A stretch of DNA of 24,000 nucleotides, from the NCBI GenBank assembly GCA_964345225.1, contig CAYFQB010000053.1, forward strand, positions 238,572 through 262,571. Direction: 5' to 3'. Positions 1,189-21,021 of this stretch are shown here, one piece after another; the stretch's first letter is position 1, and each line of letters begins with the position of its first letter. Made by a program: the position numbers and the translations under genes. The notes beneath the pieces are model-generated. The model did not search any database, was not told the origin of the DNA, and worked only from the letters and a program-made list of their open reading frames with translations. The stretch comes from an uncultured Nitrospiraceae bacterium. GTDB taxonomy: Bacteria; Nitrospirota; Thermodesulfovibrionia; Thermodesulfovibrionales; UBA6898.

Positions 1189-1207
1189 TTTTCAAAAAAC
1201 AAATTTT

Positions 1208-1242
1208 ACCCTGTTAAAAAGGCTAAGGTCTTCTAACAGGGT
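1208..1242. repeat. REP-like palindromic hairpin, copy 1 (accctgtta...taacagggt)
   Basis: 9-bp perfect inverted repeat accctgtta / taacagggt with partly pairing extensions. Flanks tttacc... and ...ggtttactt are shared with the copies at 6921-6957 and 19825-19863. It lies 20 nt after the mglA stop. Confidence 0.6.
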
Positions 1243-1366
1243 TTACTTAAGATCATTATTCCCCCTTTCTCAACAACCAAACCCTTTTCTTTTATCCATG
1301 AAATAAAAGAAGCATAAAAGGTAAAATATTAATATTACAGTTCAGAGTACGTTTTAAAAAAACAGT

Positions 1367-1483
1367 AAACCCCGTTAAAAAGTAGTTGCGTGTCGGTGGC
1401 TTTAGACACAGACTGCAACCTGCCTGCCGGCAGGCATTTTTTTAAATTCCGATTTCATCGAAGGCTTTTTTTTACGGGGTAAA
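1367..1483. repeat. Expanded REP-like element: outer arms aaaccccgttaaaaag / cttttttttacggggtaaa enclosing about 85 nt of internal hairpins
   Basis: The outer arms are near-complementary and use the same CCCCGTTA / TAACGGGG-type word as the other copies. Inside are the hairpin gttgc-gtgtc...gacac-(agact)-gcaac (1385-1419) and a terminator-like hairpin (1421-1443). Confidence 0.5.
1421..1443 (+). terminator. Rho-independent terminator-like hairpin
   Basis: tgcctg ccgg caggca (6-bp GC-rich stem, 4-nt loop) followed directly by ttttttt. There is no U-run on the opposite strand. Confidence 0.6.
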
Positions 1484-1530
1484 TAATCTAAAATATTAAT
1501 AGTTCCATCATAATATAAGGGAAAATCTCT

Positions 1531-1698
1531 ATGAAGTGTAAGATCTGCGGAGGAGAGTTAAATCTGCTGCTTGGTTGACGGACAGTCAATCTATGCTGCC
1601 TGGACTGCAGCAAAAGATTCCAGCTGTATGAATATATTGACGAGATCGATGAAAAGATTTGGCAACTGATATCCAACCGTTCCTGTGATAGGGCATAA
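1531..1698 (+). CDS. Small CxxC...CxxC zinc-ribbon ORF interrupted by an in-frame TGA (possible recoding/selenocysteine, or a pseudogene)
   Basis: ATG at 1531 is preceded by aaggga 8 nt upstream. The reading is MKCKICGGELNLLLG-TGA(1576-1578)-RTVNLCCLDCSKRFQLYEYIDEIDEKIWQLISNRSCDRA-TAA(1696-1698). Both halves are in the same frame, there is no canonical start after the TGA, and the ORF ends 2 nt before the next gene's ATG. Confidence 0.35.
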
Positions 1699-1700
1699 AT

Positions 1701-2340: not shown

Positions 2341-2582
2341 CCCGCTCCTTTTTTGAGTCATCAGTCATTAGTCATTGGTCAATAAAAAAGTAGGCAGTTA
2401 GGAGTAAGGAGTAAATAACAAAAAGTAAGAAGTAGGCAGTAAGCAGTAAGCAGAATGAAGAATGAAGATTTAATATCTAATTTTCAATCTTCAATTTTCA
2501 ATCTTCAATTTTCTTTGCGCCGAGCGCCATGCGCCATGCGATGAGTAAACGGGCATCGTAACCATAACCGTATGATGTAACC
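2341..2582 (+). repeat. Mosaic short-tandem-repeat intergenic element, locus A
   Basis: Tandem units: gtcatYR x3.5 (2357-2381); gtaNNNa heptamers (2390-2417 and 2425-2452); aatgaag x2 (2454-2467); ttttcaatcttcaa x2.4 (2481-2513); gcgccat x2 (2524-2540). These are followed by gagtaaacgggcatcgtaaccataaccgtatgatgtaacc. The core 2446-2582 is repeated in inverted orientation at 9211-9347. Confidence 0.9.
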
Positions 2583-2725
2583 TCCAGACAAAAACGGCTT
2601 AGATAAATTGTTTTCTGATAACTAATCTAGAAAAGAATTAACATTTTAAATTAATATAAAATAGATAAAAATATTTTAGGTATATTATTATAATCATTTA
2701 TAAAAACTGATAAGAGGGGGATACC

Positions 2726-3433
2726 ATGAGCATTAGAGAAAATATATATCAGGTCATAGATTTGCTTACACCATCAAACATACTTGTGAGTGTTTTTGAC
2801 AAGAGCGGTCTTGAGGAACTGGTGAAAGGGATATTAGAGTCTAATGACGAAGCGAAATTTTACTCTACGGGCGGAACTGGAAAAAAGATTATTGAGATAT
2901 TGGGTATAAATGCCTCTAAAAATTACATATCTGTGGAGGATTTTACTGGAGCACCTGAAATGGAAGGTGGCCTTGTAAAAACACTCCATCCAAAGATACA
3001 TGCCGGACTGCTTGCAGAAAGAGGTAATCCTGCCCATGAGGAATACCTGTATAAAACACTTGCACAGATGGGCGGAAGTCCCGGAGTCTATTTCGACGTT
3101 TTTGTTGGGAATTTATATCCATTCACTTCAGTCATTTCAAAGGGAGATGCAACGCCTGAAACTGCAAGAATCAATATTGATATAGGCGGGCCTGCAATGA
3201 CAATGGCATCTGCAAAAAACTGGCATAGTATTGCTGTCCTGACCTCATCTTCCCAGTATACAGAATTTGTACAGTCTCTTAAAAACAATGACGGTAAAAT
3301 CAGTCTTGAATTGAGGTTCAACCTTACTAAGCAGGCGATGAAAGCGATCGGAGAATACAGGACAGCTATAGGCAGTTATTTTTCAGCACTTGATTTTCAG
3401 AAAGATGTTAAACCTCTTCTTGATATTAAGTAG
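2726..3433 (+). CDS. Stand-alone IMP cyclohydrolase-like protein (PurH N-terminal MGS-like domain only)
   Basis: 235-aa ORF with RBS aagaggggg. PurH N-domain blocks are present: SVFDKSGL, STGGTGKKI, FTGAPEMEGGLVKTLHPKIHAGLL, GNLYPF, NIDIGGPAMTMASAKNW. No AICAR formyltransferase domain follows. Confidence 0.75.
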   Translation: MSIRENIYQVIDLLTPSNILVSVFDKSGLEELVKGILESNDEAKFYSTGGTGKKIIEILGINASKNYISVEDFTGAPEMEGGLVKTLHPKIHAGLLAERGNPAHEEYLYKTLAQMGGSPGVYFDVFVGNLYPFTSVISKGDATPETARINIDIGGPAMTMASAKNWHSIAVLTSSSQYTEFVQSLKNNDGKISLELRFNLTKQAMKAIGEYRTAIGSYFSALDFQKDVKPLLDIK

Positions 3434-3504
3434 TTCAGGAGAAAATTTTTTACATAGTGGCCACATGACATGATTTTAACTTTGCTAACAGTATTTGCCG
3501 CTTT

Positions 3505-4011
3505 TTGGAGGTGATTGGCATTTCCTCTATACTTATAGACGGCTATAATCTTATAGGTATTTATCATGACAATCTCAGCAGACAGAGGGAGAATATTATT
3601 AATTTTCTTATAAAATACAAGAAAATTAAAGGTCATGATATTACAATTGTATTTGACGGATGGAAAACAGGCAGCCATAAGGAAGAATATTTCGCCATTG
3701 GCGGTATTAATGTTATATATTCGAGGCTCGGAGAAAAAGCTGATACCATTATAAAAAGGATTATAAGTAGAGAAAAAAGAGAATTTATTGTGATAAGCTC
3801 TGACAGAGACATTATGGCATATTCCTGGTCATGTGGTTCTGTCCCGGTTTCGTCGAATAAATTCCTGTCAATTATTGAAAATGCAGGAAAATCTCTCTCT
3901 GGTAAGTATGAACTCTTAGAGGGGGATGACCATGTTAAACATAAAAAGGGTAATCCCAGACATCCCTCCAAAAAAGAAAAAGCTTTAATAAGGGTGCTCA
4001 GAAAATTGTGA
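3505..4011 (+). CDS. NYN-domain / YacP(Rae1)-like predicted ribonuclease
   Basis: 168-aa ORF. LIDGYNLIG...ITIVFDG...VIYS...ADTIIKR...VISSDRD matches the YacP-like NYN pattern. The start is uncertain (TTG 3505 or GTG 3511). Confidence 0.7.
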   Translation: MEVIGISSILIDGYNLIGIYHDNLSRQRENIINFLIKYKKIKGHDITIVFDGWKTGSHKEEYFAIGGINVIYSRLGEKADTIIKRIISREKREFIVISSDRDIMAYSWSCGSVPVSSNKFLSIIENAGKSLSGKYELLEGDDHVKHKKGNPRHPSKKEKALIRVLRKL

Positions 4012-4871
4012 TCAGAAAAGTTATTTTAAATCTCAGGGCTGCTGATGCACTGAATCTTACCTTCCTGCTTTTTTTAATAATTATTACTTTCTTATTTCAT
4101 CAAAAAATCAACGAGCCATCTTTATTATTTTTGTATTCAGGACTGATTTTCATTCAGGTTGTACTTATAAACCTTAAAGATAAAGGAAGTTTTCTCCGTT
4201 TAGTATACGATCTGATATTCCCGATAATATCAATAATTGCCATCTTTGACAGTCTCGAAATACTTGTCCATAATATAAATCCCAGAGACATAGATCCGCT
4301 TCTTATAAAACTTGATTACCTGTTATTTAACTACCATCCAACTGTCATGCTTGAAAAGATTACGACTCCTTTATTAACTGACATAATGCAGCTTGCTTAT
4401 ACAAGTTATTATTTTCTTCCAGTAATACTGGCTATTGCACTTAAGATTGAAAAAGAAGATTCTGCATTTGACCGTTCCCTGTTCCTTATAATGTTCTGCT
4501 TTTATATTTCCTATATTGGATATATGCTAATGCCTGCTCTGGGCCCGAGATACACCATTAATCACCTGCAGAATATAGAACTCGAGGGTCTATTTATTAC
4601 CCTTCCACTACAGGAGTTTTTGAACAGACTTGAAGGTATCAAGAGAGATGCCTTCCCAAGCGGCCATACAGGTGTAGCCCTTACTGTACTGTATCTGTCC
4701 TTTCTATTCAAAAAGAGATACTTTTGGATATTCTTGCCATTTGTGGTCGTGCTTATTTTCTCAGCAGTTTACTGCAGATACCATTATGTGGTAGATGTAT
4801 TAGGAGGGGTTTTACTTGCCTTAATTACAATATCACTTGGAGAGATGTACTATGAATTCAGGAAAAAGTGA
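4008..4871 (+). CDS. PAP2-superfamily integral membrane protein (Aur1/sphingomyelin-synthase-like PAP2_3 type)
   Basis: 287-aa multi-pass hydrophobic ORF with FPSGHTGVA and CRYHYVVDVLGG, the PAP2 C2/C3-like motifs. The GTG start overlaps the upstream stop (GTGA). Confidence 0.65.
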   Translation: MIRKVILNLRAADALNLTFLLFLIIITFLFHQKINEPSLLFLYSGLIFIQVVLINLKDKGSFLRLVYDLIFPIISIIAIFDSLEILVHNINPRDIDPLLIKLDYLLFNYHPTVMLEKITTPLLTDIMQLAYTSYYFLPVILAIALKIEKEDSAFDRSLFLIMFCFYISYIGYMLMPALGPRYTINHLQNIELEGLFITLPLQEFLNRLEGIKRDAFPSGHTGVALTVLYLSFLFKKRYFWIFLPFVVVLIFSAVYCRYHYVVDVLGGVLLALITISLGEMYYEFRKK

Positions 4872-6916: not shown

Positions 6917-6920
6917 CATG

Positions 6921-6957
6921 CCCCGTTAGAAGGAAATAACAACATTTTCTAACGGGG
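6921..6957. repeat. REP-like palindromic hairpin, copy 3
   Basis: Perfect 11-bp inverted repeat ccccgttagaa / ttctaacgggg with a 15-nt loop, 5 nt after the kinase stop. Its reverse complement aligns with 19825-19863 at roughly 34 of 38 positions by hand. Confidence 0.75.
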
Positions 6958-7033
6958 TAAACCCGTAGAATCGTGAGTTATTCATCAATACAAACTAATT
7001 CAGGGTCAAAGCAGAATAAAATAAGAATTAAAT

Positions 7034-9183: not shown

Positions 9184-9210
9184 CTCATCCTCCTCTAAGT
9201 AATTTTATAA

Positions 9211-9375
9211 GGTTACGTCTAACGGTTACGGTAACGACGCCCGTTTACTCATCGCATGGCGCATGGCGCTCGGCGCAAAGAAAATTGAAGATTGAAAATT
9301 GAATATTGAAAATTAGATATTAAATCTTCATTCTTCATTCTGCTTACTCCTTACTTCCTACTTTTTAATTCTCAC
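9211..9375 (-). repeat. Mosaic short-tandem-repeat intergenic element, locus B (inverted copy of locus A)
   Basis: The reverse complement of 9211-9347 aligns with 2446-2582 over 137 bp with about 8 mismatches by hand alignment. 9348-9375 continues with tccttac / ttcctac units. It lies between glnB and glnA. Confidence 0.9.
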
Positions 9376-9387
9376 TTTATACTGGTT

Positions 9388-9747
<360 letters not shown>

Positions 9748-9756
9748 CTATATACA

Positions 9757-9870
9757 CCTTACTCCTTACAAATCGCATAGCGCAAAGCGCTTGGCGCATA
9801 GCGTTATTTTTTACTCCTAACTCCTCACTTTTTACTTCTTACTTCTTGCCTTTACCCGCCTCAGGCGGGT
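9757..9870 (-). repeat. Mosaic short-tandem-repeat element, locus D, plus GC hairpin, in the glnB upstream region
   Basis: Contains ccttactccttac; cgcatagcg...cgcatagcg flanking aaagcgctt; and ttactcctaactcctcactttttacttcttacttctt. A 7-bp hairpin acccgcc-tca-ggcgggt follows at 9854-9870. The word set matches loci A, B and C. Confidence 0.75.
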
Positions 9871-9900
9871 TAACCTGTACCTATATCTATGTACTTTTAT

Positions 9901-9916
9901 TACAAGAACCTTGCCA
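9901..9916 (-). promoter_or_regulatory. Candidate sigma-54 (-24/-12) promoter upstream of glnB
   Basis: The minus strand reads cTGGCAaggttcTTGTA. GG and the TTG are correctly spaced versus the TGGCAC-N5-TTGCW consensus, but -12 is GT rather than GC. It lies about 175 nt upstream of the glnB start. Confidence 0.3.
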
Positions 9917-10014
9917 GCTAAATTCCTTTTAAAATCAAAGGTATTTTGTTTACTTGAAGGTATAAACTGCCTAATTCCCAAGCATACATGCCTAAAAAAT
10001 AGGCAATCAATTAA

Positions 10015-10628: not shown

Positions 10629-10662
10629 CTAACCCAAAAAATGCGTTTGAAGCATGTATACA
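10629..10662. repeat. Solo copy of the left end of the 14199-14340 element
   Basis: ctaacccaaaaaatgcgtttgaagcatgtataca compares with ctaacccccaaaatgcgtttaaagcaggtataca at 14199-14232. I found no matching right end nearby. Confidence 0.6.
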
Positions 10663-10708
10663 AGCAGTCTACGACTCTTAGATAATGTGCCTTAGTACCA
10701 TAAAAAGT

Positions 10709-12049: not shown

Positions 12050-14197
12050 ATGCTCATAGAACTTCAGGGACAGTTAGAGCACATTACATATTTTAACGCG
12101 GAAAATCATTATACAATCGCCAAAATAAAAGTAGAGGGCAAAAAAGAGCTGGTTACCGTAATCGGTAATCTTTTTTCTGTATCCCCCGGAGAGGTACTAA
12201 AGCTGAAAGGATTATGGGAAATCCATCCTAAATATGGTGAACAGTTCAAGGTACTCTCTTATGAACCAATCCCGCCCGTTACTGAAAAAGGAATTGAAAG
12301 GTATTTAGGTTCAGGCCTGATTAAAGGTATCGGGCCTGTCATGGCAAAGCGTCTTGTAGATAAATTCAAGGGTGAAACACTAAATATAATAGAGACAGAC
12401 ATTGAGAGACTGAAAGAAGTCGAGGGTTTCGGCCATAAAAGGATCCAGATGATCAAGACCGCATGGGCAGAACAGAAAGAAATTCGTGATGTAATGATCT
12501 TTCTTCAAAGCCACGAGGTCAGTTCTAGTTATGCAGCGAAAATTTTCAAACACTATGGTAAAGATTCAATAAGAATTGTTAAAGAAAATCCTTACAAACT
12601 TGCCACCGATATATTCGGAATCGGATTCCATACCGCTGATAAAATATCCGAAAAGCTCGGTATCCCCAGGGACTCGCAGATAAGAGCTGAGGCAGGCATA
12701 CTGTATGTTCTACGACAGCTTGCTGATGATGGACATGTATTTTATCCATACGAATCTCTTATTTCAGAATGCAGAAAGATTCTTGATATCGAAGAGCATA
12801 TTATCGCCAGTGCATTAAAAAAAATTTCCTCAGAAAAAAGGGTTGTAATCGAAGATCGTTCGGTCTTTCTTGCTGAACTCTATATCTCAGAAGTCGGCAT
12901 CGCCGGTAATCTTATGACGATTTTCAATACTCTGAAAAACCTCAGGCATTTTGATAAATACAAAGCTGTTGAATGGGCACAGCATGAACTGAACATTGCA
13001 CTCGCCAATGACCAGATTAAAGCAATAAATGAATCCATAGTTAAGAAAGTGATGGTAATAACAGGTGGCCCTGGTACGGGCAAAACCACTATCATCAATG
13101 CAATAATCAAAATCTACAAAAGACTGGGACAGAAAGTAATGCTTGCTGCACCGACCGGAAGGGCATCTAAAAGAATGTCTGAGGCTACAGGTCATGAGGC
13201 AAAGACAATCCACCGCTTGCTGGAGTACAGCCCAAAACAGGGTGGTTTTAAGAAGAACGAGGGAGACAAACTTGAAGCAGATTTAATAGTAATAGATGAG
13301 GCATCAATGGTAGATACAATACTTATGCATCATCTCCTGAAGGCGGTACCTTCTGCAGCAACACTGATCCTTGTTGGTGATGTTGATCAACTGCCTTCTG
13401 TAGGAGCCGGAAATGTGCTTAAGGATATTATAGATTCTGGTGTTATACCTACTGTCAGGCTTAATAAAATATTCAGGCAGTCCAGAGAAAGTCTGATTAT
13501 CGTCAATGCTCATAGAATAAATAAAGGTGAATTTCCGATCATTACATCAGACAAAAACTTGCATCAGGACTTCTATTTCATTCAGATTGAGGAACCTGAA
13601 AAGGTATTTGAGATGATAATAAAGATGTGCAATGAAAGTATCCCCAGGAAATTCGGCTACCACCCTGTTAACGATATTCAGGTATTAACCCCGATGTACA
13701 GGGGGATTGCAGGTGCATCTAATCTTAATCACGAATTACAGAGACAACTGAACCATTCAACTGATGAACTGATCAGAGAGGGGAAGGTACTGAAGACCGG
13801 TGATAAGGTAATGCAGATAAGAAACAACTATGATAAAGATGTCTATAACGGCGATATCGGGAGGATTTCTGTAATCAATAGAGCAAACAATGAGGTGACT
13901 GTTGACTACGAGGGGAGACCTGTTGTTTATGATTTTACAGATCTCGACGAAATAGTGCTGGCCTATGCGGTCTCTGTTCATAAATCACAGGGCAGCGAAT
14001 ATCCTGTTGTTATAATGCCATTATTGACACAGCACTATATGTTACTGCAGAGGAACCTGCTTTACACCGCTATCACCAGAGGGAAAAGGTTGGTTGTAAT
14101 TATAGGTACAAATAAAGCACTGGCAATCGCAGTAAAGAATAATAAGCCTGAGAAGAGATTTACAAATTTAAAGAACAGGCTTAAAACTGTTTATTAG
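12050..14197 (+). CDS. recD2: RecD2-type (RecD/TraA family) ATP-dependent DNA helicase
   Basis: 715-aa ORF. It has an N-terminal OB/HhH region (GLIKGIGPVMAKRLV, EVEGFGHKR), Walker A ITGGPGTGKTT, LAAPTGRASKRM, Walker B LIVIDEASMVD, LVGDVDQLPSVGAGNV and the C-terminal YAVSVHKSQGSEYP...LLYTAITRGK. Confidence 0.9.
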   Translation: MLIELQGQLEHITYFNAENHYTIAKIKVEGKKELVTVIGNLFSVSPGEVLKLKGLWEIHPKYGEQFKVLSYEPIPPVTEKGIERYLGSGLIKGIGPVMAKRLVDKFKGETLNIIETDIERLKEVEGFGHKRIQMIKTAWAEQKEIRDVMIFLQSHEVSSSYAAKIFKHYGKDSIRIVKENPYKLATDIFGIGFHTADKISEKLGIPRDSQIRAEAGILYVLRQLADDGHVFYPYESLISECRKILDIEEHIIASALKKISSEKRVVIEDRSVFLAELYISEVGIAGNLMTIFNTLKNLRHFDKYKAVEWAQHELNIALANDQIKAINESIVKKVMVITGGPGTGKTTIINAIIKIYKRLGQKVMLAAPTGRASKRMSEATGHEAKTIHRLLEYSPKQGGFKKNEGDKLEADLIVIDEASMVDTILMHHLLKAVPSAATLILVGDVDQLPSVGAGNVLKDIIDSGVIPTVRLNKIFRQSRESLIIVNAHRINKGEFPIITSDKNLHQDFYFIQIEEPEKVFEMIIKMCNESIPRKFGYHPVNDIQVLTPMYRGIAGASNLNHELQRQLNHSTDELIREGKVLKTGDKVMQIRNNYDKDVYNGDIGRISVINRANNEVTVDYEGRPVVYDFTDLDEIVLAYAVSVHKSQGSEYPVVIMPLLTQHYMLLQRNLLYTAITRGKRLVVIIGTNKALAIAVKNNKPEKRFTNLKNRLKTVY

Positions 14198-14198
14198 G

Positions 14199-14340
14199 CT
14201 AACCCCCAAAATGCGTTTAAAGCAGGTATACATGTTGTGTAGTTGGGCATGTTTCTTGAACGGACATAGGGAGCGAAAGGGTTATGTCCAACTACATAAT
14301 TTACCAATTCTTTTTATACTGAAAAGCATTTTTGGGTTAA
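14199..14340. mobile_element. MITE-like 142-bp structured element with imperfect terminal inverted repeats
   Basis: The ends ctaacccccaaaatgcgttt and aaaagcatttttgggttaa are complementary at about 16 of 19 positions. Internal inverted repeats are tgtgtagttgg / ccaactacata (14236-46 / 14288-98) and ggacata / tatgtcc (14262-68 / 14283-89). TA dinucleotides lie on both sides (14200-01 and 14338-39). The element fills the gap between the recD2 stop and the hgcB stop. Confidence 0.55.
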
Positions 14341-18342: not shown

Positions 18343-18727
18343 CCCTTTACTCCTAGCACCATTTGTACAATTTTCAATTTCTGATTGTGCATGGCGTTCT
18401 TTTTACTTCCTACTGCTTACTTCCTACTTTTTACTCTTTGAGAACTAAAAGGTTACGTCATACGGTTACGGTAACGATGCCCGTTTCGGTTATCGTCTAT
18501 CGGTTACGTGTTTATTTAGTTTCTCTGGTTTCTCTGGTTTCTCTGGTTTATCTGGTTTATCTATTTCGCCCTGCTCCTTACCCCCTGCCCTGTTAGTCCT
18601 GAGCCTGTCGAAGGATTACTCCTCACTCCTCACTCCTTACTCCTCACTGTTTATTCTTTTTATTTAGTGCTTACTGCTTACTGCCTACTGCTTACTCCCC
18701 GCTCCTTGCCCCCTGCTCTTTGCTGGT
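18343..18727. repeat. Mosaic short-tandem-repeat element, locus C, filling the whole gap between convergent genes
   Basis: Contains ttacttcctac-type units (about 18403-18436). The block ggttacgtcatacggttacggtaacgatgcccgttt (18451-18486) matches 9211-9246 with 3 mismatches. Five 9-mers (a/g)gttt(c/a)tct lie at 18518-18562, 7-mers ctcactc/cttactc at 18615-18648, and 7-mers gcttact/gcctact at 18669-18696. Two related C-rich words lie at 18568-18592 and 18697-18723. Confidence 0.9.
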
Positions 18728-19824: not shown

Positions 19825-19863
19825 CCCCGTTTAGAAAGTGTTGTTATTTTCTTCTAACGGAGG
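19825..19863. repeat. REP-like palindromic hairpin, copy 4 (degenerate, opposite orientation to copy 3)
   Basis: ccccgtttagaaagtgttgttattttcttctaacggagg compares with the reverse complement of 6921-6957, ccccgttagaaaatgttgttatttccttctaacgggg. The flanks tttac... and ...gtttactt are shared with copy 1. Confidence 0.65.
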
Positions 19864-20052: not shown

Positions 20053-21021
20053 TTATCTGAAATCAATGATCACTTTGAGAGAGCTTTTCTCTGCAGCCTT
20101 CTCAAATGCCTCCCTGGCTTCATTAAACGTGTATATTCCTGTTATGAGCGGTCTGACATCAAGTAGCTTTCTTGAAAGCGCATTTAAAGCAGGTTTAAAA
20201 GGACCGCATCTTGAACCGACCACGGCAAGTTCATCTGTAACAAGATGTGCAAGGTTCATCTCCCTGCCCTCTGTAACAGTGCTTTTCAATATGATTATTC
20301 CCATTGGCTTTATCAATTTTAAAGCCATTTCAAAACCGTCAGCAGAGCCTGTGGCATCAACCACTATATCGTAATTTTTTCCAATTTTTAAATCTTCTAG
20401 AATAAAGGTCTTTATATTCTTTTCTGTGGCAATTTTGAGTTTATTTTTATGCTTTCCGGTCAGACTTACATTATAGTTATAAAGACCGAAGACAAACGAA
20501 ACAAGCAGCCCTAGCTTCCCGTCACCCATAACGAGTATCCTGTCATCAGGTTTGATGCTAACCTGTCTGGTAATCTCAAAGGCTGATGCCAAAGGTTCAA
20601 TGAAAACCGCCTCTTCATCAGAGATGATCTCAGGAACCTCGAATAAATTGTTTAATGGCAGTGTAATATATTCAGCCATGGTACCGTCTTTATCAAGAAT
20701 CCCAAGGACTTTTCTTCTCTGGCAATGATTCTTTAATCCTTTTAAACAGTATTCGCATATGCCACATGCACAGTTGATTTCACCTACAACCCTCCTGCCT
20801 GTCAAGCCCCTGTCTTTTCCATTTATCCTCTCTACCACACCAACAAACTCGTGTCCGATCACCCCTTTAAATCCCTTATATCCCTTTATGATCTCAAGGT
20901 CAGTGTTACAGATACCGGCCATACTTATCCTGATAAGCGCCTCGTTTTCCAAAGGTTCAGGCAGTGGATGATCTTCAACAAATCTAAGTTCTTTGTCAAA
21001 AACTACTGCTTTCATTTCCAT
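20053..21021 (-). CDS. Zinc-dependent alcohol dehydrogenase family (MDR) oxidoreductase
   Basis: 322-aa ORF. Catalytic zinc region GICNTDLEIIKG...GHEFVGVV, structural zinc CACGICEYCLKGLKNHC, and Rossmann segment VMGDGKLGLL. Confidence 0.9.
   Translation of the reverse strand: MEMKAVVFDKELRFVEDHPLPEPLENEALIRISMAGICNTDLEIIKGYKGFKGVIGHEFVGVVERINGKDRGLTGRRVVGEINCACGICEYCLKGLKNHCQRRKVLGILDKDGTMAEYITLPLNNLFEVPEIISDEEAVFIEPLASAFEITRQVSIKPDDRILVMGDGKLGLLVSFVFGLYNYNVSLTGKHKNKLKIATEKNIKTFILEDLKIGKNYDIVVDATGSADGFEMALKLIKPMGIIILKSTVTEGREMNLAHLVTDELAVVGSRCGPFKPALNALSRKLLDVRPLITGIYTFNEAREAFEKAAEKSSLKVIIDFR

What the first reader, a model, noticed from the sequence alone, without database searches (positions are those of the whole stretch)
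2341..2582. Family of mosaic intergenic elements built from tandem 6-14 nt words, oriented with transcription and rich in Shine-Dalgarno-like words
Four loci share one vocabulary of short units, each repeated 2-5 times in tandem: 2341-2582, 9211-9375, 9757-9870 and 18343-18727. The units are heptamers gtaagca/gtaggca/gtaagga/gttagga, aatgaag, gtcatYR, gcgccat or cgcatagcg, a 14-mer ttttcaatcttcaa, and gttacg/gtaacc blocks around gtaaacgggc. The module order is conserved between loci A and B but shuffled in C and D. In the three loci where transcription direction is unambiguous (A on plus; B and D on minus), the purine-rich reading lies on the sense strand. That gives words such as TTAGGAGTAAGGAGTAA, GTGAGGAGTTAGGAGTAA and GTAAGGAGTAAG, that is, SD-like (A/G)AGGAG flanked by TAA. 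This strand consistency argues for an RNA-level role. Candidates are ribosome or CsrA-type GGA-binding-protein decoys, processing or stability elements, or intercistronic insulators. A DNA-level role as slippage-prone recombination substrates is also possible. I do not recognise these as any described repeat family, though my recall is not a database search.
Basis: partly seen in the sequence, partly recalled or inferred. Interest (0 to 1): 0.7.

Follow-up and report, generated by a model that had tools for sequence, protein, structure and literature searches.

The report
Mosaic intergenic heptamer-repeat family, Nitrospirota
The four loci are real copies of a previously undescribed, lineage-specific family of dispersed intergenic "mosaic" repeats (tandem 7-nt word arrays plus half of a REP-like palindrome) in an uncultured Thermodesulfovibrionales bacterium; this belongs to a known kind of bacterial junk-like or accessory DNA, and a dedicated RNA function is possible but not shown.

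Summary
Four intergenic loci are built from tandem 7-nt words (also 9- and 14-nt). Lag-7 self-similarity is far above neighbouring lags and confined to these loci. A and B share 174 nt at 90% identity in inverted orientation, and a 34-nt module is shared by A, B and D.

The source is a Thermodesulfovibrionales (Nitrospirota) MAG. A metagenome scan found about 20 further loci, in the same assembly and in JABAOH contigs. They carry the same vocabulary in one conserved module order, so D is canonical, not shuffled. The gttacg/gtaacc block is one arm of a roughly 110-nt imperfect palindrome. That palindrome occurs complete in other MAGs.

Element B is an insertion: the glnB-glnA spacer is 35-119 nt in relatives and 204 nt here. 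Between co-directional genes the elements are sense in 11 cases and antisense in 3 (p=0.057). This is a bias, not a rule. They sit close to the upstream stop codon, as published heptamer repeats do. Only about 40% of purine-rich units are SD-like, whereas 96% carry a stop triplet. There is no Rfam match and no significant whole-element fold.

Best reading: a BIME/NIME/STRR-like dispersed repeat family shaped by slippage and recombination, passively transcribed, with orientation filtered by selection. It is a new member of a known kind, of moderate-to-low interest.

The parts
2341..2640 (+). Locus A: mosaic element between two + strand genes (stop at 2324, next start at 2726), in sense orientation
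   Evidence: Order: 5' motif cccgctccttttttga, then the GTCA array, purine-rich (PUR) arrays, AATGAAG, the TTTTCAATCTTCAA units, the GCGCCAT array, the half-palindrome and a tail shared with L025.
2357..2384 (+). GTCAYYR heptamer array (GTCATCA GTCATTA GTCATTG GTCAATA)
   Evidence: The same array opens the element in L018, L021a, L025, L026, L029 and L032.
2390..2452 (+). Two purine-rich GTARGNA heptamer arrays (2390-2417 and 2425-2452)
   Evidence: 15 window hits against 0 expected. Unit census.
2452..2513 (+). AATGAAG array, spacer and TTTTCAA/TCTTCAA array. The two arrays are imperfect inverse complements and form a hairpin with one mismatch per unit.
   Evidence: z -2.1 in A, z -3.2 in the B copy.
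2516..2540 (+). GCGCCAT/GCGCCGA heptamer array
   Evidence: Recurs upstream of the type-2 half-palindrome in L014, L016, L017, L025 and L029.
2547..2583 (+). Single (right) arm of the GGTTACG...GCCCGT palindrome: AAACGGGCATCGTAACCATAACCGTATGATGTAACC
   Evidence: (I7). Does not fold on its own (z +0.66).
9205..9383 (-). Locus B: the same element as the 3' part of A, inserted in the glnB-glnA spacer in sense orientation. Subparts are the half-palindrome 9211-9246, GCGCCAT array 9253-9277, TTTTCAA array 9280-9314, AATGAAG array 9325-9341 and PUR array 9341-9361.
   Evidence: (I1: 174 nt, 90%). The orthologous spacer is 35-56 nt in most relatives, 119 nt in L034 (which holds a different array) and 204 nt here.
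9745..9875 (-). Locus C: upstream of glnB, sense. Contains PUR array 9808-9842, CGCATAGCG/CAAAGCG array 9769-9803, TAAGGAGTAAGG 9757-9770 and a nested small hairpin AACCCGCCTGAGGCGGG at 9855-9875.
   Evidence: The same nested hairpin occurs in L027b. A terminator-like hairpin of the upstream gene lies at 10052-10022.
18343..18727 (-). Locus D: a near full-length canonical element that fills the whole spacer between convergent genes. The purine-rich strand is the sense strand of DoxX.
   Evidence: Same module order as L018, L022b, L025, L027b and L032. A short-read assembly of the same organism breaks inside it at window 18619.
18451..18509 (-). Type-1 half-palindrome (acgtaaccgatagacgataaccgAAACGGGCATCGTTACCGTAACCGTATGACGTAACC)
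   Evidence: (D4, I7). No significant fold (z -0.6 and -1.5).
18510..18565 (-). 9-nt array AACCAGAGA/AACCAGATA
   Evidence: (period 9, 4.9 copies, 97% matches). Conserved just 5' of the half-palindrome in L013, L018, L022b, L027b and L032.
18566..18727 (-). 5' part of D: GCAGGGR/GCAAGGA words, the ccttcgacaggctcaggactaac module, GTGAGGA array 18620-18647 and GTAAGCA/GTAGGCA array 18668-18695
   Evidence: The same modules occur in L016, L021a, L021b, L022b, L028 and L029.
18343..18450 (-). 3' part of D: ttttagttctcaa linker, PUR array 18400-18434, a remnant of the GCCATGC word and a GAAATTGAAAATTG word
   Evidence: In D the TTTTCAA word is inverted relative to the PUR units compared with A.

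Best explanation
The loci are full or truncated copies of a lineage-specific, dispersed mosaic extragenic repeat of an uncultured Thermodesulfovibrionales (Nitrospirota) genome.

**Composition**
- Arrays of degenerate heptanucleotide words, belonging to the simple-sequence-repeat / STRR class.
- Single arms of a REP/REPIN-like imperfect palindrome (GGTTACG..GCCCGT / ACGGGC..CGTAACC).
- Small nested GC-rich hairpins.

**Shown**
- The composite has a conserved module order and an intrinsic polarity.
- It is multi-copy in at least two assemblies.
- It is strictly intergenic.
- It usually begins within a few tens of nucleotides of the upstream gene's stop codon.
- It can sit inside an operon spacer (glnB-glnA), where relatives have no such element.

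**Inferred**
- The arrays arise and change length by slipped-strand mispairing.
- Whole composites are copied between loci by DNA-level processes. These could be recombination or gene conversion between dispersed copies, or an unidentified transposase acting on the palindrome.
- The elements are passively transcribed as 3'-UTR or intercistronic RNA.
- The roughly 4:1 sense bias results from selection on that transcript rather than from a dedicated function. In sense the RNA is purine-rich, unstructured and full of stop triplets, which is harmless. In antisense it would be C/U-rich, anti-SD-like and free of stop codons, so potentially rut-like or SD-sequestering.
For: **Non-random repeats.** Periodicity and vocabulary are far beyond chance.

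**Dispersal as a unit.** A and B share 174 nt at 90% identity. Twenty-one further stretches carry the module. Most JABAOC and JABAOH copies show the same module order. Similarity between the two assemblies' loci is confined to the elements, at 80-95% over 60-220 nt.

**Insertion.** The glnB-glnA spacer is 35, 46, 55-56 or 119 nt in relatives whose GlnA is 86-89% identical. It is 204 nt here.

**Intergenic placement.** 80 of 83 pattern hits are intergenic. In the 13 of these intergenic regions (between co-directional genes) for which I could set element edges, the distance is about 20 nt (median) from the upstream stop and about 85 nt from the next start. I read the element edges by eye off the printed sequences. 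This matches published heptamer repeats, which average 28 versus 160 nt (PMC4692102).

**Slippage and rearrangement in the lineage.** Two near-identical strains of a relative differ by a 23-nt indel inside an array and lose synteny right after the arrays. A short-read assembly of the source organism breaks inside D.

**Orientation.** 11 sense to 3 antisense, following the local gene strand.

**Composition.** The sense strand is 64% purine. It holds AGGAG 55 times against 2 on the antisense strand, and 475 stop triplets against 223. The coding strands of this organism are themselves 55.5% purine.

**No sign of a structured RNA.** Rfam gives no match. Whole-element z-scores run from -1.1 to +1.6.

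**Precedents.** Heptamers are the commonest class of long simple-sequence repeats in bacteria (Mrazek 2007 as summarised in PMC4679880). Geobacter metallireducens has multicopy elements of 4-5 tandem heptamers (PMC2700814).
Against: - A 79% sense bias, a conserved polarity and a conserved module order are more regular than expected for purely neutral DNA.
- Every purine-rich unit keeps a stop triplet. TAA, TAG, TGA and TTAG account for 96% of 149 units. TGG occurs 0 times against 4.6 expected. This hints at selection on the reading of the RNA.
- No transposase, target-site duplication or terminal inverted repeat was identified, so the copying mechanism is unproven.
- The sample was ascertained through the half-palindrome module and covers only about 150 kb.
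- No transcript data are available.
- Copy-number polymorphism was shown in a relative with a different vocabulary, not at the window loci themselves.
Confidence: 0.55

Rival explanations
1. RNA-level cis element. In sense orientation, the unstructured purine-rich arrays act just after stop codons or between cistrons. Their TAAGGAG/GAGGAG cores could capture 30S subunits or a GGA-binding protein such as CsrA. Their stop triplets in all three frames could terminate stray translation. Either way they would insulate or tune expression of neighbouring genes.
For: - Sense bias of 11:3, following the local gene strand.
- B must be transcribed if the ancestral glnB-glnA operon is intact.
- AGGAG occurs 55 times on the sense strand and 2 times on the antisense strand.
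- 96% of purine-rich units contain a stop triplet, and TGG is absent against 4.6 expected.
- The elements start about 20 nt after stop codons.
- A published proposal of the same type exists for TAACTGA heptamer repeats (PMC4679880).
Against: - Three well-supported antisense copies exist.
- The commonest units (GTAAGCA, GTAGGCA, GTAAAAA) have no SD or GGA core.
- GGA motifs are not presented in hairpin loops, and there is no significant structure.
- There is no Rfam relative.
- Relatives manage glnB-glnA with a 35-56-nt spacer and no element.
- Stop-proximal placement also occurs for heptamer repeats that have no strand bias.
- The unit counts are not independent events, because units are copied by descent.
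Confidence: 0.2
2. DNA-level protein-binding arrays. The repeated words would be operator or architectural sites for a regulator, a nucleoid-associated protein or a recombinase, and the arrays would organise DNA or regulate adjacent promoters. An example is GGTTACG at 13-14-nt spacing (two heptamer units); another is the CGCATAGCG words upstream of glnB.
For: - The GGTTACG/CGTAACC words recur at a fixed register, and the palindrome core is invariant across MAGs labelled as different phyla.
- Locus C lies in the glnB upstream region.
- Geobacter tandem hepta- and octanucleotide families were annotated as putative global-regulator sites.
Against: - Most copies lie downstream of genes rather than in promoter regions.
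- Flanking genes have unrelated functions: glnA, DoxX, guaA-like, topA-like, ilv-like and two-component genes.
- Word sequences are highly degenerate within arrays.
- A binding site for a symmetric dimer would not explain the strand bias.
Confidence: 0.12
3. Non-autonomous mobile element in the strict sense (a REPIN or MITE). The palindrome would be mobilised by a RAYT / IS200-IS605-type single-strand transposase, and the heptamer arrays would be cargo or insertion-site scars. Orientation bias would then come from the strand specificity of transposition.
For: - Complete hairpins of about 110 nt with z-scores of -4 to -5 occur in several MAGs.
- Near-identical arms appear in MAGs labelled as different phyla.
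- Small hairpins are nested at one fixed site, GCCCG^ / ^CGGGC.
- REPIN biology provides a precedent (PMC3116915, listed; details from my own knowledge).
Against: - In the source genome almost all copies are single arms, which would be immobile as REPINs.
- No Y1-transposase domain appears among the called genes of the 39.5 kb.
- Orientation follows gene strand within one replichore, not replication direction.
- No target-site duplications were seen.
- Several of the cross-phylum hits are short contigs from one study and may be mis-binned.
Confidence: 0.08
4. Inert low-complexity filler generated purely in situ by replication slippage at each locus, with no copying between loci.
For: - Period-7 arrays are the commonest long simple-sequence repeats in bacteria.
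- Relatives carry arrays with other vocabularies at other sites.
Against: - A and B share 174 nt spanning five different modules at 90% identity.
- More than 20 loci share multi-module order and non-repetitive linkers such as ttttagttctcaa and ccttcgacaggctcaggactaac.
Confidence: 0.03

Closest known systems
Heptanucleotide simple-sequence repeats: cyanobacterial STRR, long SSRs sensu Mrazek 2007, GGGAATC repeats of Xanthomonas/Nostoc (PMC4692102) and TAACTGA repeats of Beggiatoaceae (PMC4679880)
   Same: - Head-to-tail 7-nt units, 2-8 per array.
- Almost exclusively intergenic.
- Closer to the upstream ORF's end than to the next start.
- Length variation among close strains.
- Function unknown, or only proposed to be post-transcriptional.
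   Different: - Here several different word families are concatenated in a conserved order together with non-repetitive linkers and a palindrome arm.
- The composite is copied between loci.
- The vocabulary (GTARGNA, GTCAYYR, GCGCCAT, AATGAAG) differs from the published ones.
- There is a sense bias of about 4:1, whereas the Xanthomonas repeats are balanced.
BIMEs of E. coli and NIMEs of Neisseria (mosaic extragenic repeat clusters). The comparison rests on my own knowledge of these families.
   Same: - Mosaic combinations of a palindromic unit with other short conserved motifs.
- Multi-copy and extragenic.
- Often located at 3' ends of genes or between co-transcribed genes.
- Transcribed passively.
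   Different: - No sequence relationship is known.
- The non-palindromic modules here are tandem heptamer arrays.
- Mostly only one arm of the palindrome is present.
- No evidence for gyrase, IHF or Pol I binding, or for mRNA stabilisation.
REP / REPIN-RAYT systems (PMC3116915)
   Same: - An imperfect palindrome of roughly 20-40 nt per arm.
- Pairs form a hairpin of about 110 nt in some genomes.
- Extragenic and multi-copy.
   Different: - No cognate RAYT gene was seen.
- The window copies are singlets embedded in heptamer arrays.
- The core is near-identical in MAGs assigned to different phyla, which is unusual for REPs.
Multicopy tandem hepta- and octanucleotide elements of Geobacter metallireducens (PMC2700814)
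   Same: - Dispersed families of 16-49 copies, each built of 3-5 tandem 7-8-nt units.
- Found in an anaerobic environmental bacterium.
- Function unknown.
   Different: - The consensus words differ (GGACCGG, MTYCTGA, GTTGCTYN).
- Some Geobacter families are intragenic or occur as paired sites.
- No mosaic with a palindrome arm has been described there.
CsrB/RsmZ-type sponge RNAs and SD-like ribosome decoys
   Same: Multiple GGA/AGGAG motifs in a purine-rich, probably transcribed sequence.
   Different: - Not a discrete sRNA gene.
- The motifs are not displayed in hairpin loops.
- Most units lack GGA.
- No Rfam match.
- Antisense copies exist.

Membership tests
Heptanucleotide simple-sequence repeat (STRR / long SSR) arrays | Head-to-tail iteration of a 7-nt unit, longer than chance allows | tested here: met
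   Lag 7 gives 417 positions against 0-15 for neighbouring lags. The three-unit pattern gives 15 hits against 0 expected.
Heptanucleotide simple-sequence repeat (STRR / long SSR) arrays | Predominantly intergenic, and nearer to the upstream ORF than to the downstream ORF | tested here: met
   80 of 83 hits are intergenic; about 20 nt (median) from the upstream stop and about 85 nt to the next start. Compare PMC4692102.
Heptanucleotide simple-sequence repeat (STRR / long SSR) arrays | Unit-number polymorphism between strains | tested here: inconclusive
   The only second assembly of the source organism is identical where it overlaps. A relative shows a 23-nt indel inside an array between two near-identical strains. 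Copies within the genome differ in unit number.
BIME/NIME-type mosaic extragenic repeats | A palindromic unit combined with other conserved motifs in recurrent order at many extragenic sites | tested here: met
   the same module order recurs in more than 10 loci of two assemblies.
BIME/NIME-type mosaic extragenic repeats | Sequence homology to REP/PU or dRS3/RS units, and binding of IHF, gyrase or Pol I | not tested
   No comparison with enterobacterial or neisserial consensus sequences was run. The binding properties need experiments.
REP / REPIN-RAYT | Two inverted REP sequences forming a long imperfect hairpin | tested here: inconclusive
   Met in L001, L002, L005, L006, L019 and L032 (z -4 to -5). 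Not met by the window copies, which are single arms with z -0.6 to +0.75.
REP / REPIN-RAYT | A cognate RAYT (Y1 transposase) gene flanked by the repeats | not testable with these tools
No Y1_Tnp domain appears among the called genes in the 39.5 kb.
CsrB/RsmZ-like protein-sponge sRNA | A discrete sRNA gene with many GGA motifs in hairpin loops, plus a covariance-model match | tested here: not met
   No Rfam hit even at E<=1. No significant structure. GGA occurs in about 40% of units only. B lies inside an operon spacer.
Intrinsic transcription terminator | A GC-rich stem-loop followed by a U-tract on the sense strand | tested here: not met
   no sense-strand terminator-like site lies inside A, B or D. 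The only sites within a locus (9786-9806) are on the + strand, antisense to glnB.
Integron attC site (considered for the palindrome) | R'' RYYYAAC ... R' GTTRRRY boundaries, and location in gene-cassette arrays | tested here: not met
   The sequence shows GGTTACG / CGTAACC ends that do not fit the consensus. The attC consensus is from my own knowledge. Flanking genes are housekeeping genes.

The most novel reading that the evidence does not exclude
The purine-rich heptamer arrays could be selected RNA elements rather than passengers. Each 7-nt unit keeps a stop triplet (TAA, TAG or TGA, never TGG), so three units close all three reading frames. About 40% of units carry a TAAGGAG/GAGGAG Shine-Dalgarno core. 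Placed about 20 nt behind stop codons and mostly in sense, they would act as orientation-dependent translation stoppers and ribosome-capturing insulators between genes. The adjacent GTCA arrays supply TGA in every unit of the opposite strand.
Probability: 0.12. Interest if true: 0.6.

Novelty: new member of a known kind. Interest (0 to 1): 0.35.

Why it matters
If the main reading is right, this is a previously uncatalogued repeat family of an uncultured Nitrospirota lineage.

- **Assembly and binning.** Short-read contigs break inside the elements, so the family matters for assembling and binning these genomes.
- **Strain typing.** Unit numbers vary, which makes the arrays usable as markers.
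- **Annotation.** About 200-400-nt intergenic stretches, including one inside the glnB-glnA operon, should not be mistaken for regulatory RNAs.
- **Evolution of mosaic repeats.** It is another case in which heptamer arrays and REP-like palindromes combine into BIME-like mosaics. The measurable sense bias could be used to study how selection on transcripts filters selfish DNA.
- **If the minority reading is right.** A natural three-frame stop and ribosome-capture insulator would be a new class of bacterial intercistronic element.

Tried and rejected
- **Rfam.** I ran the gathering threshold on the window, E<=1 on seven related loci and E<=1 on the window. Nothing falls on the elements.
- **Viral origin.** The module is absent from 2.9 million viral contigs.
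- **Structured RNA.** Whole elements A, B and D (both strands of D) fold no better than shuffles. The window half-palindromes do not fold. Only the AATGAAG/TCTTCAA inverted arrays make a modest hairpin.
- **Covariation in the complete palindrome.** Ten copies give 16 pairs and 0 compensatory changes, because the core is invariant. This is uninformative.
- **attC site.** Rejected on end motifs and gene context.
- **Intrinsic terminator.** Rejected.
- **Sigma-54 promoter in or near locus C.** TGGCAAGGTTCTTGTA has GT where the conserved GC should be, and GGTGTATATAGTTTGCA has the wrong spacing. I read these by eye and left them as speculation.
- **Orthologous comparison of element-bearing loci between the JABAOC and JABAOH assemblies.** blastn found similarity only in the repeats themselves, so no occupied-versus-empty site pair could be built.
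- **Extending the source contig.** Two look-ups with window ORFs failed, probably because the start codons are called differently. Only about 39.5 kb of the 837-kb contig could be read.
- **Literature on the source assembly.** Searches for JABAOC, GCA_012975005, ERR2564001 and FWPV01 found nothing relevant.
- **Replication-strand explanation of the orientation bias.** Rejected, because opposite orientations occur within 16 kb and each matches the local gene strand.
Full report

Yes. Tandem Repeats Finder lists period-7 arrays, with 14- and 9-nt variants, exactly in the four stretches.

I assembled 39.5 kb of the source contig from the window and its two flanks. On this sequence a self-match scan gives 417 positions at or above 0.6 identity at lag 7. 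Lags 5, 6, 8, 10, 11 and 13 give 0-15. All strong lag-7 signal lies in loci A-D.

A three-unit pattern of the purine-rich word (GTDRRNA x3) occurs 15 times, only in the four loci, against 0 in shuffles. A 34-nt module occurs three times (A+, B-, D-) against 0 expected. A and B share a gapless 174-nt stretch at 90% identity in inverted orientation.

- D lies between convergent genes, so only A, B and C have an unambiguous transcription direction.
- D is not shuffled (see section 3).
- A extends to about 2640 and C to about 9875.
- SD-like words are a minority of units.

**2. Where does it come from?**

An exact-protein look-up places the window on NCBI assembly GCA_012975005.1, contig JABAOC010000356.1 (837 kb). 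The closest named GlnA homologues are from Thermodesulfovibrionales / Nitrospirota MAGs.

Flanking genes are ordinary housekeeping genes: glnB, glnA, RecD2, a nucleoside transporter, DoxX and two-component systems.

**3. The family is much larger than four loci.**

A metagenome scan with the window-specific variant of the gtaacc block returned 21 stretches:
- four more on the same contig;
- one on another contig of the same assembly;
- eleven on JABAOH contigs;
- a few from other metagenomes.

Oriented on the module, nearly all JABAOC and JABAOH copies show the same vocabulary in the same order:

[cccgct..tttta] - [GTCAYYR array] - [GTARGNA array] - [aaagacaggtaaagg] - [GCAGGGR words / ccttcgacaggctcaggactaac] - [AACCAGAKA 9-mers] - [type-1 half-palindrome ...ccgAAACGGGCnTCGTTACCGTAACCGTnaGACGTAACC] - [ttttagttctcaa] - [GTARGNA array] - [GCGCCAT array] - [type-2 half-palindrome gagtAAACGGGC...GTAACC].

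Locus D is a nearly full-length copy of this composite. A and B are a subfamily of its 3' part with an AATGAAG/TTTTCAA insert. C is a short version.

Similarity between the loci of the two assemblies is confined to the elements, at 80-95% over 60-220 nt. The elements are therefore dispersed repeats copied as composites, not products of local slippage alone.

A short-read assembly of the same organism breaks inside D, in the GTGAGGA array at window 18619.

**4. What is the gttacg/gtaacc block?**

A scan of one genome per species found the core AAACGGGCRTCGTWACCRTAACCGT in seven contigs. The MAGs are labelled Nitrospirota, Desulfobacteraceae, delta-proteobacterium, Pseudomonadota and Omnitrophota. 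Several are short contigs from one study, so their taxonomy is uncertain.

In those contigs the core is the right arm of an imperfect palindrome of about 110 nt: GGTAACGAAGCCCGTATCG ... CGAAACGGGCATCGTAACC. It folds far better than shuffles (z -4.1 to -5.0; L003, which carries a nested insertion, gives z -3.0), with a single mismatch every 4-6 pairs.

The window copies are single arms and do not fold (z -0.6 to +0.75). Ten complete copies show an invariant core and no compensatory changes, so covariation is uninformative.

Small GC-rich hairpins are nested at one fixed site of the arm (GCCCG^ / ^CGGGC) in several copies. A different one (CCCGCCTGAGGCGGG) sits in locus C and in L027b.

This anatomy resembles REP/REPIN elements with singlet remnants. 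A cognate transposase could not be searched for.

**5. Position and orientation.**

My own gene calls reproduce the database calls for the source contig. Eighty of 83 pattern hits over 153 kb of non-redundant sequence are intergenic.

For the 14 element-bearing spacers flanked by co-directional genes:
- 11 are sense: A, B, C, L015, L016, L021b, L022a, L022b, L026, L027a and L027b.
- 3 are antisense: L013, L028 and L031.

The flanking genes of the three exceptions have clear Pfam domains in the stated orientation. The binomial probability is 0.029 one-sided and 0.057 two-sided. This is a real-looking but moderate bias.

The bias follows the local gene strand, not the replichore. A is + and B, C and D are - within 16 kb, and L021 has one copy in each orientation.

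I read the element edges by eye from the printed spacers, which was possible for 13 of these 14 spacers (L027a, a short GTCA array, was not measured). The element usually starts about 20 nt (median) after the upstream stop codon and ends about 85 nt before the next start. Two of the three antisense copies keep the same stop-proximal position.

This placement is what Rehm et al. reported for GGGAATC heptamer repeats, which lie on average 28 nt from the 5' neighbouring ORF and 160 nt from the next. Those repeats have no strand bias (PMC4692102).

**6. Element B is an insertion into an operon spacer.**

In relatives with 86-89% identical GlnA, the glnB-glnA spacer is 35 nt (L038/L039), 46 nt (L040) or 55-56 nt (L036/L037). 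In L034 it is 119 nt and holds a different array, TGGAGYR words arranged as an inverted pair that folds with z -4.9. In the window it is 204 nt. L040 shares the window's gene order downstream of glnA.

B is therefore lineage-specific. If the ancestral operon is intact, which is an inference, B is transcribed in sense.

Relatives carry 7-8-nt arrays of other or similar vocabularies elsewhere. Two near-identical strains of one relative differ by a 23-nt indel inside an array and lose synteny just beyond the arrays. That supports slippage and recombination as the processes shaping such arrays in this order. It was not shown at the window loci themselves.

**7. What the words say.**

A census of 149 purine-rich units in 35 arrays gives:

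| Unit | Count |
|---|---|
| GTAAGCA | 29 |
| GTAGGCA | 25 |
| GTAAGGA | 24 |
| GTAAAAA | 15 |
| GTGAGGA | 14 |
| GTAGGAA | 13 |

Only about 40% of units contain GGA or GGAG.

The more constant feature is a stop triplet at positions 2-4: TAA 79, TAG 43, TGA 16, plus TTAG 5, which is 96% of units. TGG is never seen, against 4.6 expected if the two positions varied independently (Poisson p about 0.01). The units are not independent events, so this is suggestive only.

Because 7 is not a multiple of 3, three units close all three frames. The GTCA arrays carry TGA on the opposite strand in every unit.

Over 5.5 kb of elements, the sense strand is 64% purine. It contains AGGAG 55 times against 2 on the antisense strand, and 475 stop triplets against 223. 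Antisense open runs reach 70-105 codons. The coding strands of this organism are themselves 55.5% purine.

**8. RNA-level evidence.**

There is none beyond orientation:
- No Rfam family matches.
- Whole elements fold like shuffles (z -0.9, -1.1, +1.6 and -0.8).
- The only local structure in A and B is an imperfect hairpin between the AATGAAG and TCTTCAA/TTTTCAA arrays (z -2.1 and -3.2), with one mismatch per unit.
- No sense-strand terminator-like site lies in A, B or D.

**9. Explanation.**

The best-supported model (confidence 0.55) is a lineage-specific dispersed mosaic extragenic repeat. It is functionally comparable to BIMEs or NIMEs and built largely from STRR-type heptamer arrays plus REP-like singlets.

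- *Shown:* non-random periodicity, dispersal as composites, strictly intergenic and stop-proximal location, the insertion at glnB-glnA, a moderate sense bias and strongly asymmetric composition.
- *Inferred:* growth and shrinkage by slippage; copying by recombination, gene conversion or an unknown transposase; passive transcription; and an orientation filter. The antisense RNA would be C/U-rich, anti-SD-like, stop-free and possibly rut-like, and so costly inside operons.

The rivals and their confidences are:
- a true RNA cis-function (0.20);
- DNA-binding arrays (0.12);
- a strict REPIN/MITE with strand-specific transposition (0.08);
- purely local filler (0.03), which is contradicted.

**10. 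Comparison with the known, and novelty.**

Heptanucleotide repeats are the commonest class of long simple-sequence repeats in bacteria (Mrazek 2007, as summarised in PMC4679880). Published examples include:
- TAACTGA repeats with a proposed translational role;
- GGGAATC repeats;
- multicopy tandem-heptamer elements in Geobacter metallireducens.

Mosaic extragenic repeats (BIME, NIME, BOX) and REPINs are textbook categories. That statement rests on my own knowledge; the REPIN paper is listed.

I found no description of this particular family or of such repeats in Nitrospirota. It is therefore a new member of a known kind.

Interest is modest (0.35). The finding is real and tidy. The strand bias and the stop-triplet regularity are worth a whole-genome and transcriptome check. 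Nothing so far requires a new mechanism.

Noticed in passing
window 14199-14300 (full copy, directly after the RecD2 stop at 14197); 10629-10671 (partial); 20175-20197 (weak); also L021 ~2796-3112, L025 ~3392-3646, L028 ~4590-4680: A second, unrelated dispersed repeat: AACCCMAAAATGCGTTTRAAGCAGGTATACATGTTGTRTAGTTGGGCATGTTTCTTGARCGGACATAGGGA. Its 3' part forms a long hairpin (z -2.3). It is shared between the JABAOC and JABAOH assemblies.
   Followed up: partly
window 6919-6958 (+) and 19826-19860 (-); similar sequences at window 1208-1245 and in L007 (~440-480): A hairpin family CCCCGTTAGAA-N13-TTCTAACGGGG. One copy lies just after the histidine-kinase stop codon (z -5.2). The two window copies are 89% complementary. 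It is possibly a terminator-like or another small repeat family (I8).
   Followed up: partly
L013, L026, L031, L032 (inside AAACGGG^C of the half-palindrome); L003, L007, L019 (mirrored GCCCG site); window 9855-9875 and L027b: Small GC-rich hairpins are nested at one fixed site of the palindrome arm. Examples are the 36-nt CCCTGTAAAGTAGAAAAGCTTACTTGACAGGGCGGG and the 15-nt CCCGCCTGAGGCGGG, flanked by short direct repeats (GGGC / CCCG). From my own knowledge, they resemble the very small mobile repeats described in cyanobacteria.
   Followed up: partly
L001-L007 (genome contigs), L019, L030, L033: The roughly 110-nt palindrome with an invariant core occurs in MAGs labelled as different phyla: Nitrospirota, Desulfobacteraceae, delta-proteobacterium, Omnitrophota and Pseudomonadota. 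Either it has moved horizontally or some short contigs are mis-binned. The A.A mismatch (GTATCG/CGAAAC) is conserved and appears as T.T in flipped copies.
   Followed up: partly
L001 1143-1398: A 54% GC delta-proteobacterial MAG contig has a convergent-gene spacer filled with similar short arrays: GAGTTGC/GAGTTAC, CTATGCG/CTTTGCG (the same word as window locus C), and TTCTTCT. Vocabulary is therefore partly shared across distant genomes.
   Followed up: no
L034 3882-4000; L036 5700-5850; L041 8601-8694; L038 5822-5888: In related Thermodesulfovibrionales, heptamer or octamer arrays often come as inverted pairs. These form hairpins with one mismatch per unit. The TGGAGYR pair in the glnB-glnA spacer of L034 is an example (z -4.9). 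The A/B AATGAAG-TCTTCAA pair has the same architecture.
   Followed up: partly
window 9786-9806 (+ strand): The CGCATAGCG array of locus C, together with the run of T from the complement of GTAAAAA, scores as a terminator-like site on the + strand. That is antisense to glnB.
   Followed up: no
window ~9915-9930 (- strand): TGGCAAGGTTCTTGTA upstream of locus C resembles a sigma-54 promoter (TGGCAC-N5-TTGCA), but has GT where the conserved GC should be. If it is used, locus C would lie in the glnB 5' UTR. I read this by eye only.
   Followed up: no
window 1189-1700: A 500-nt spacer with hairpins and T-runs, for example CCTGCCTGCCGGCAGG followed by TTTTTTT at 1419-1441. The short-read assembly of the same organism ends here, at window ~1481.
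   Followed up: no
L025 ~13030-13120: A tRNA-like 3' end (TGGCGGAGAGAGTGGGATTTGAACCCAC, reverse strand) lies just downstream of an element copy. I did not check it with ARAGORN.
   Followed up: no
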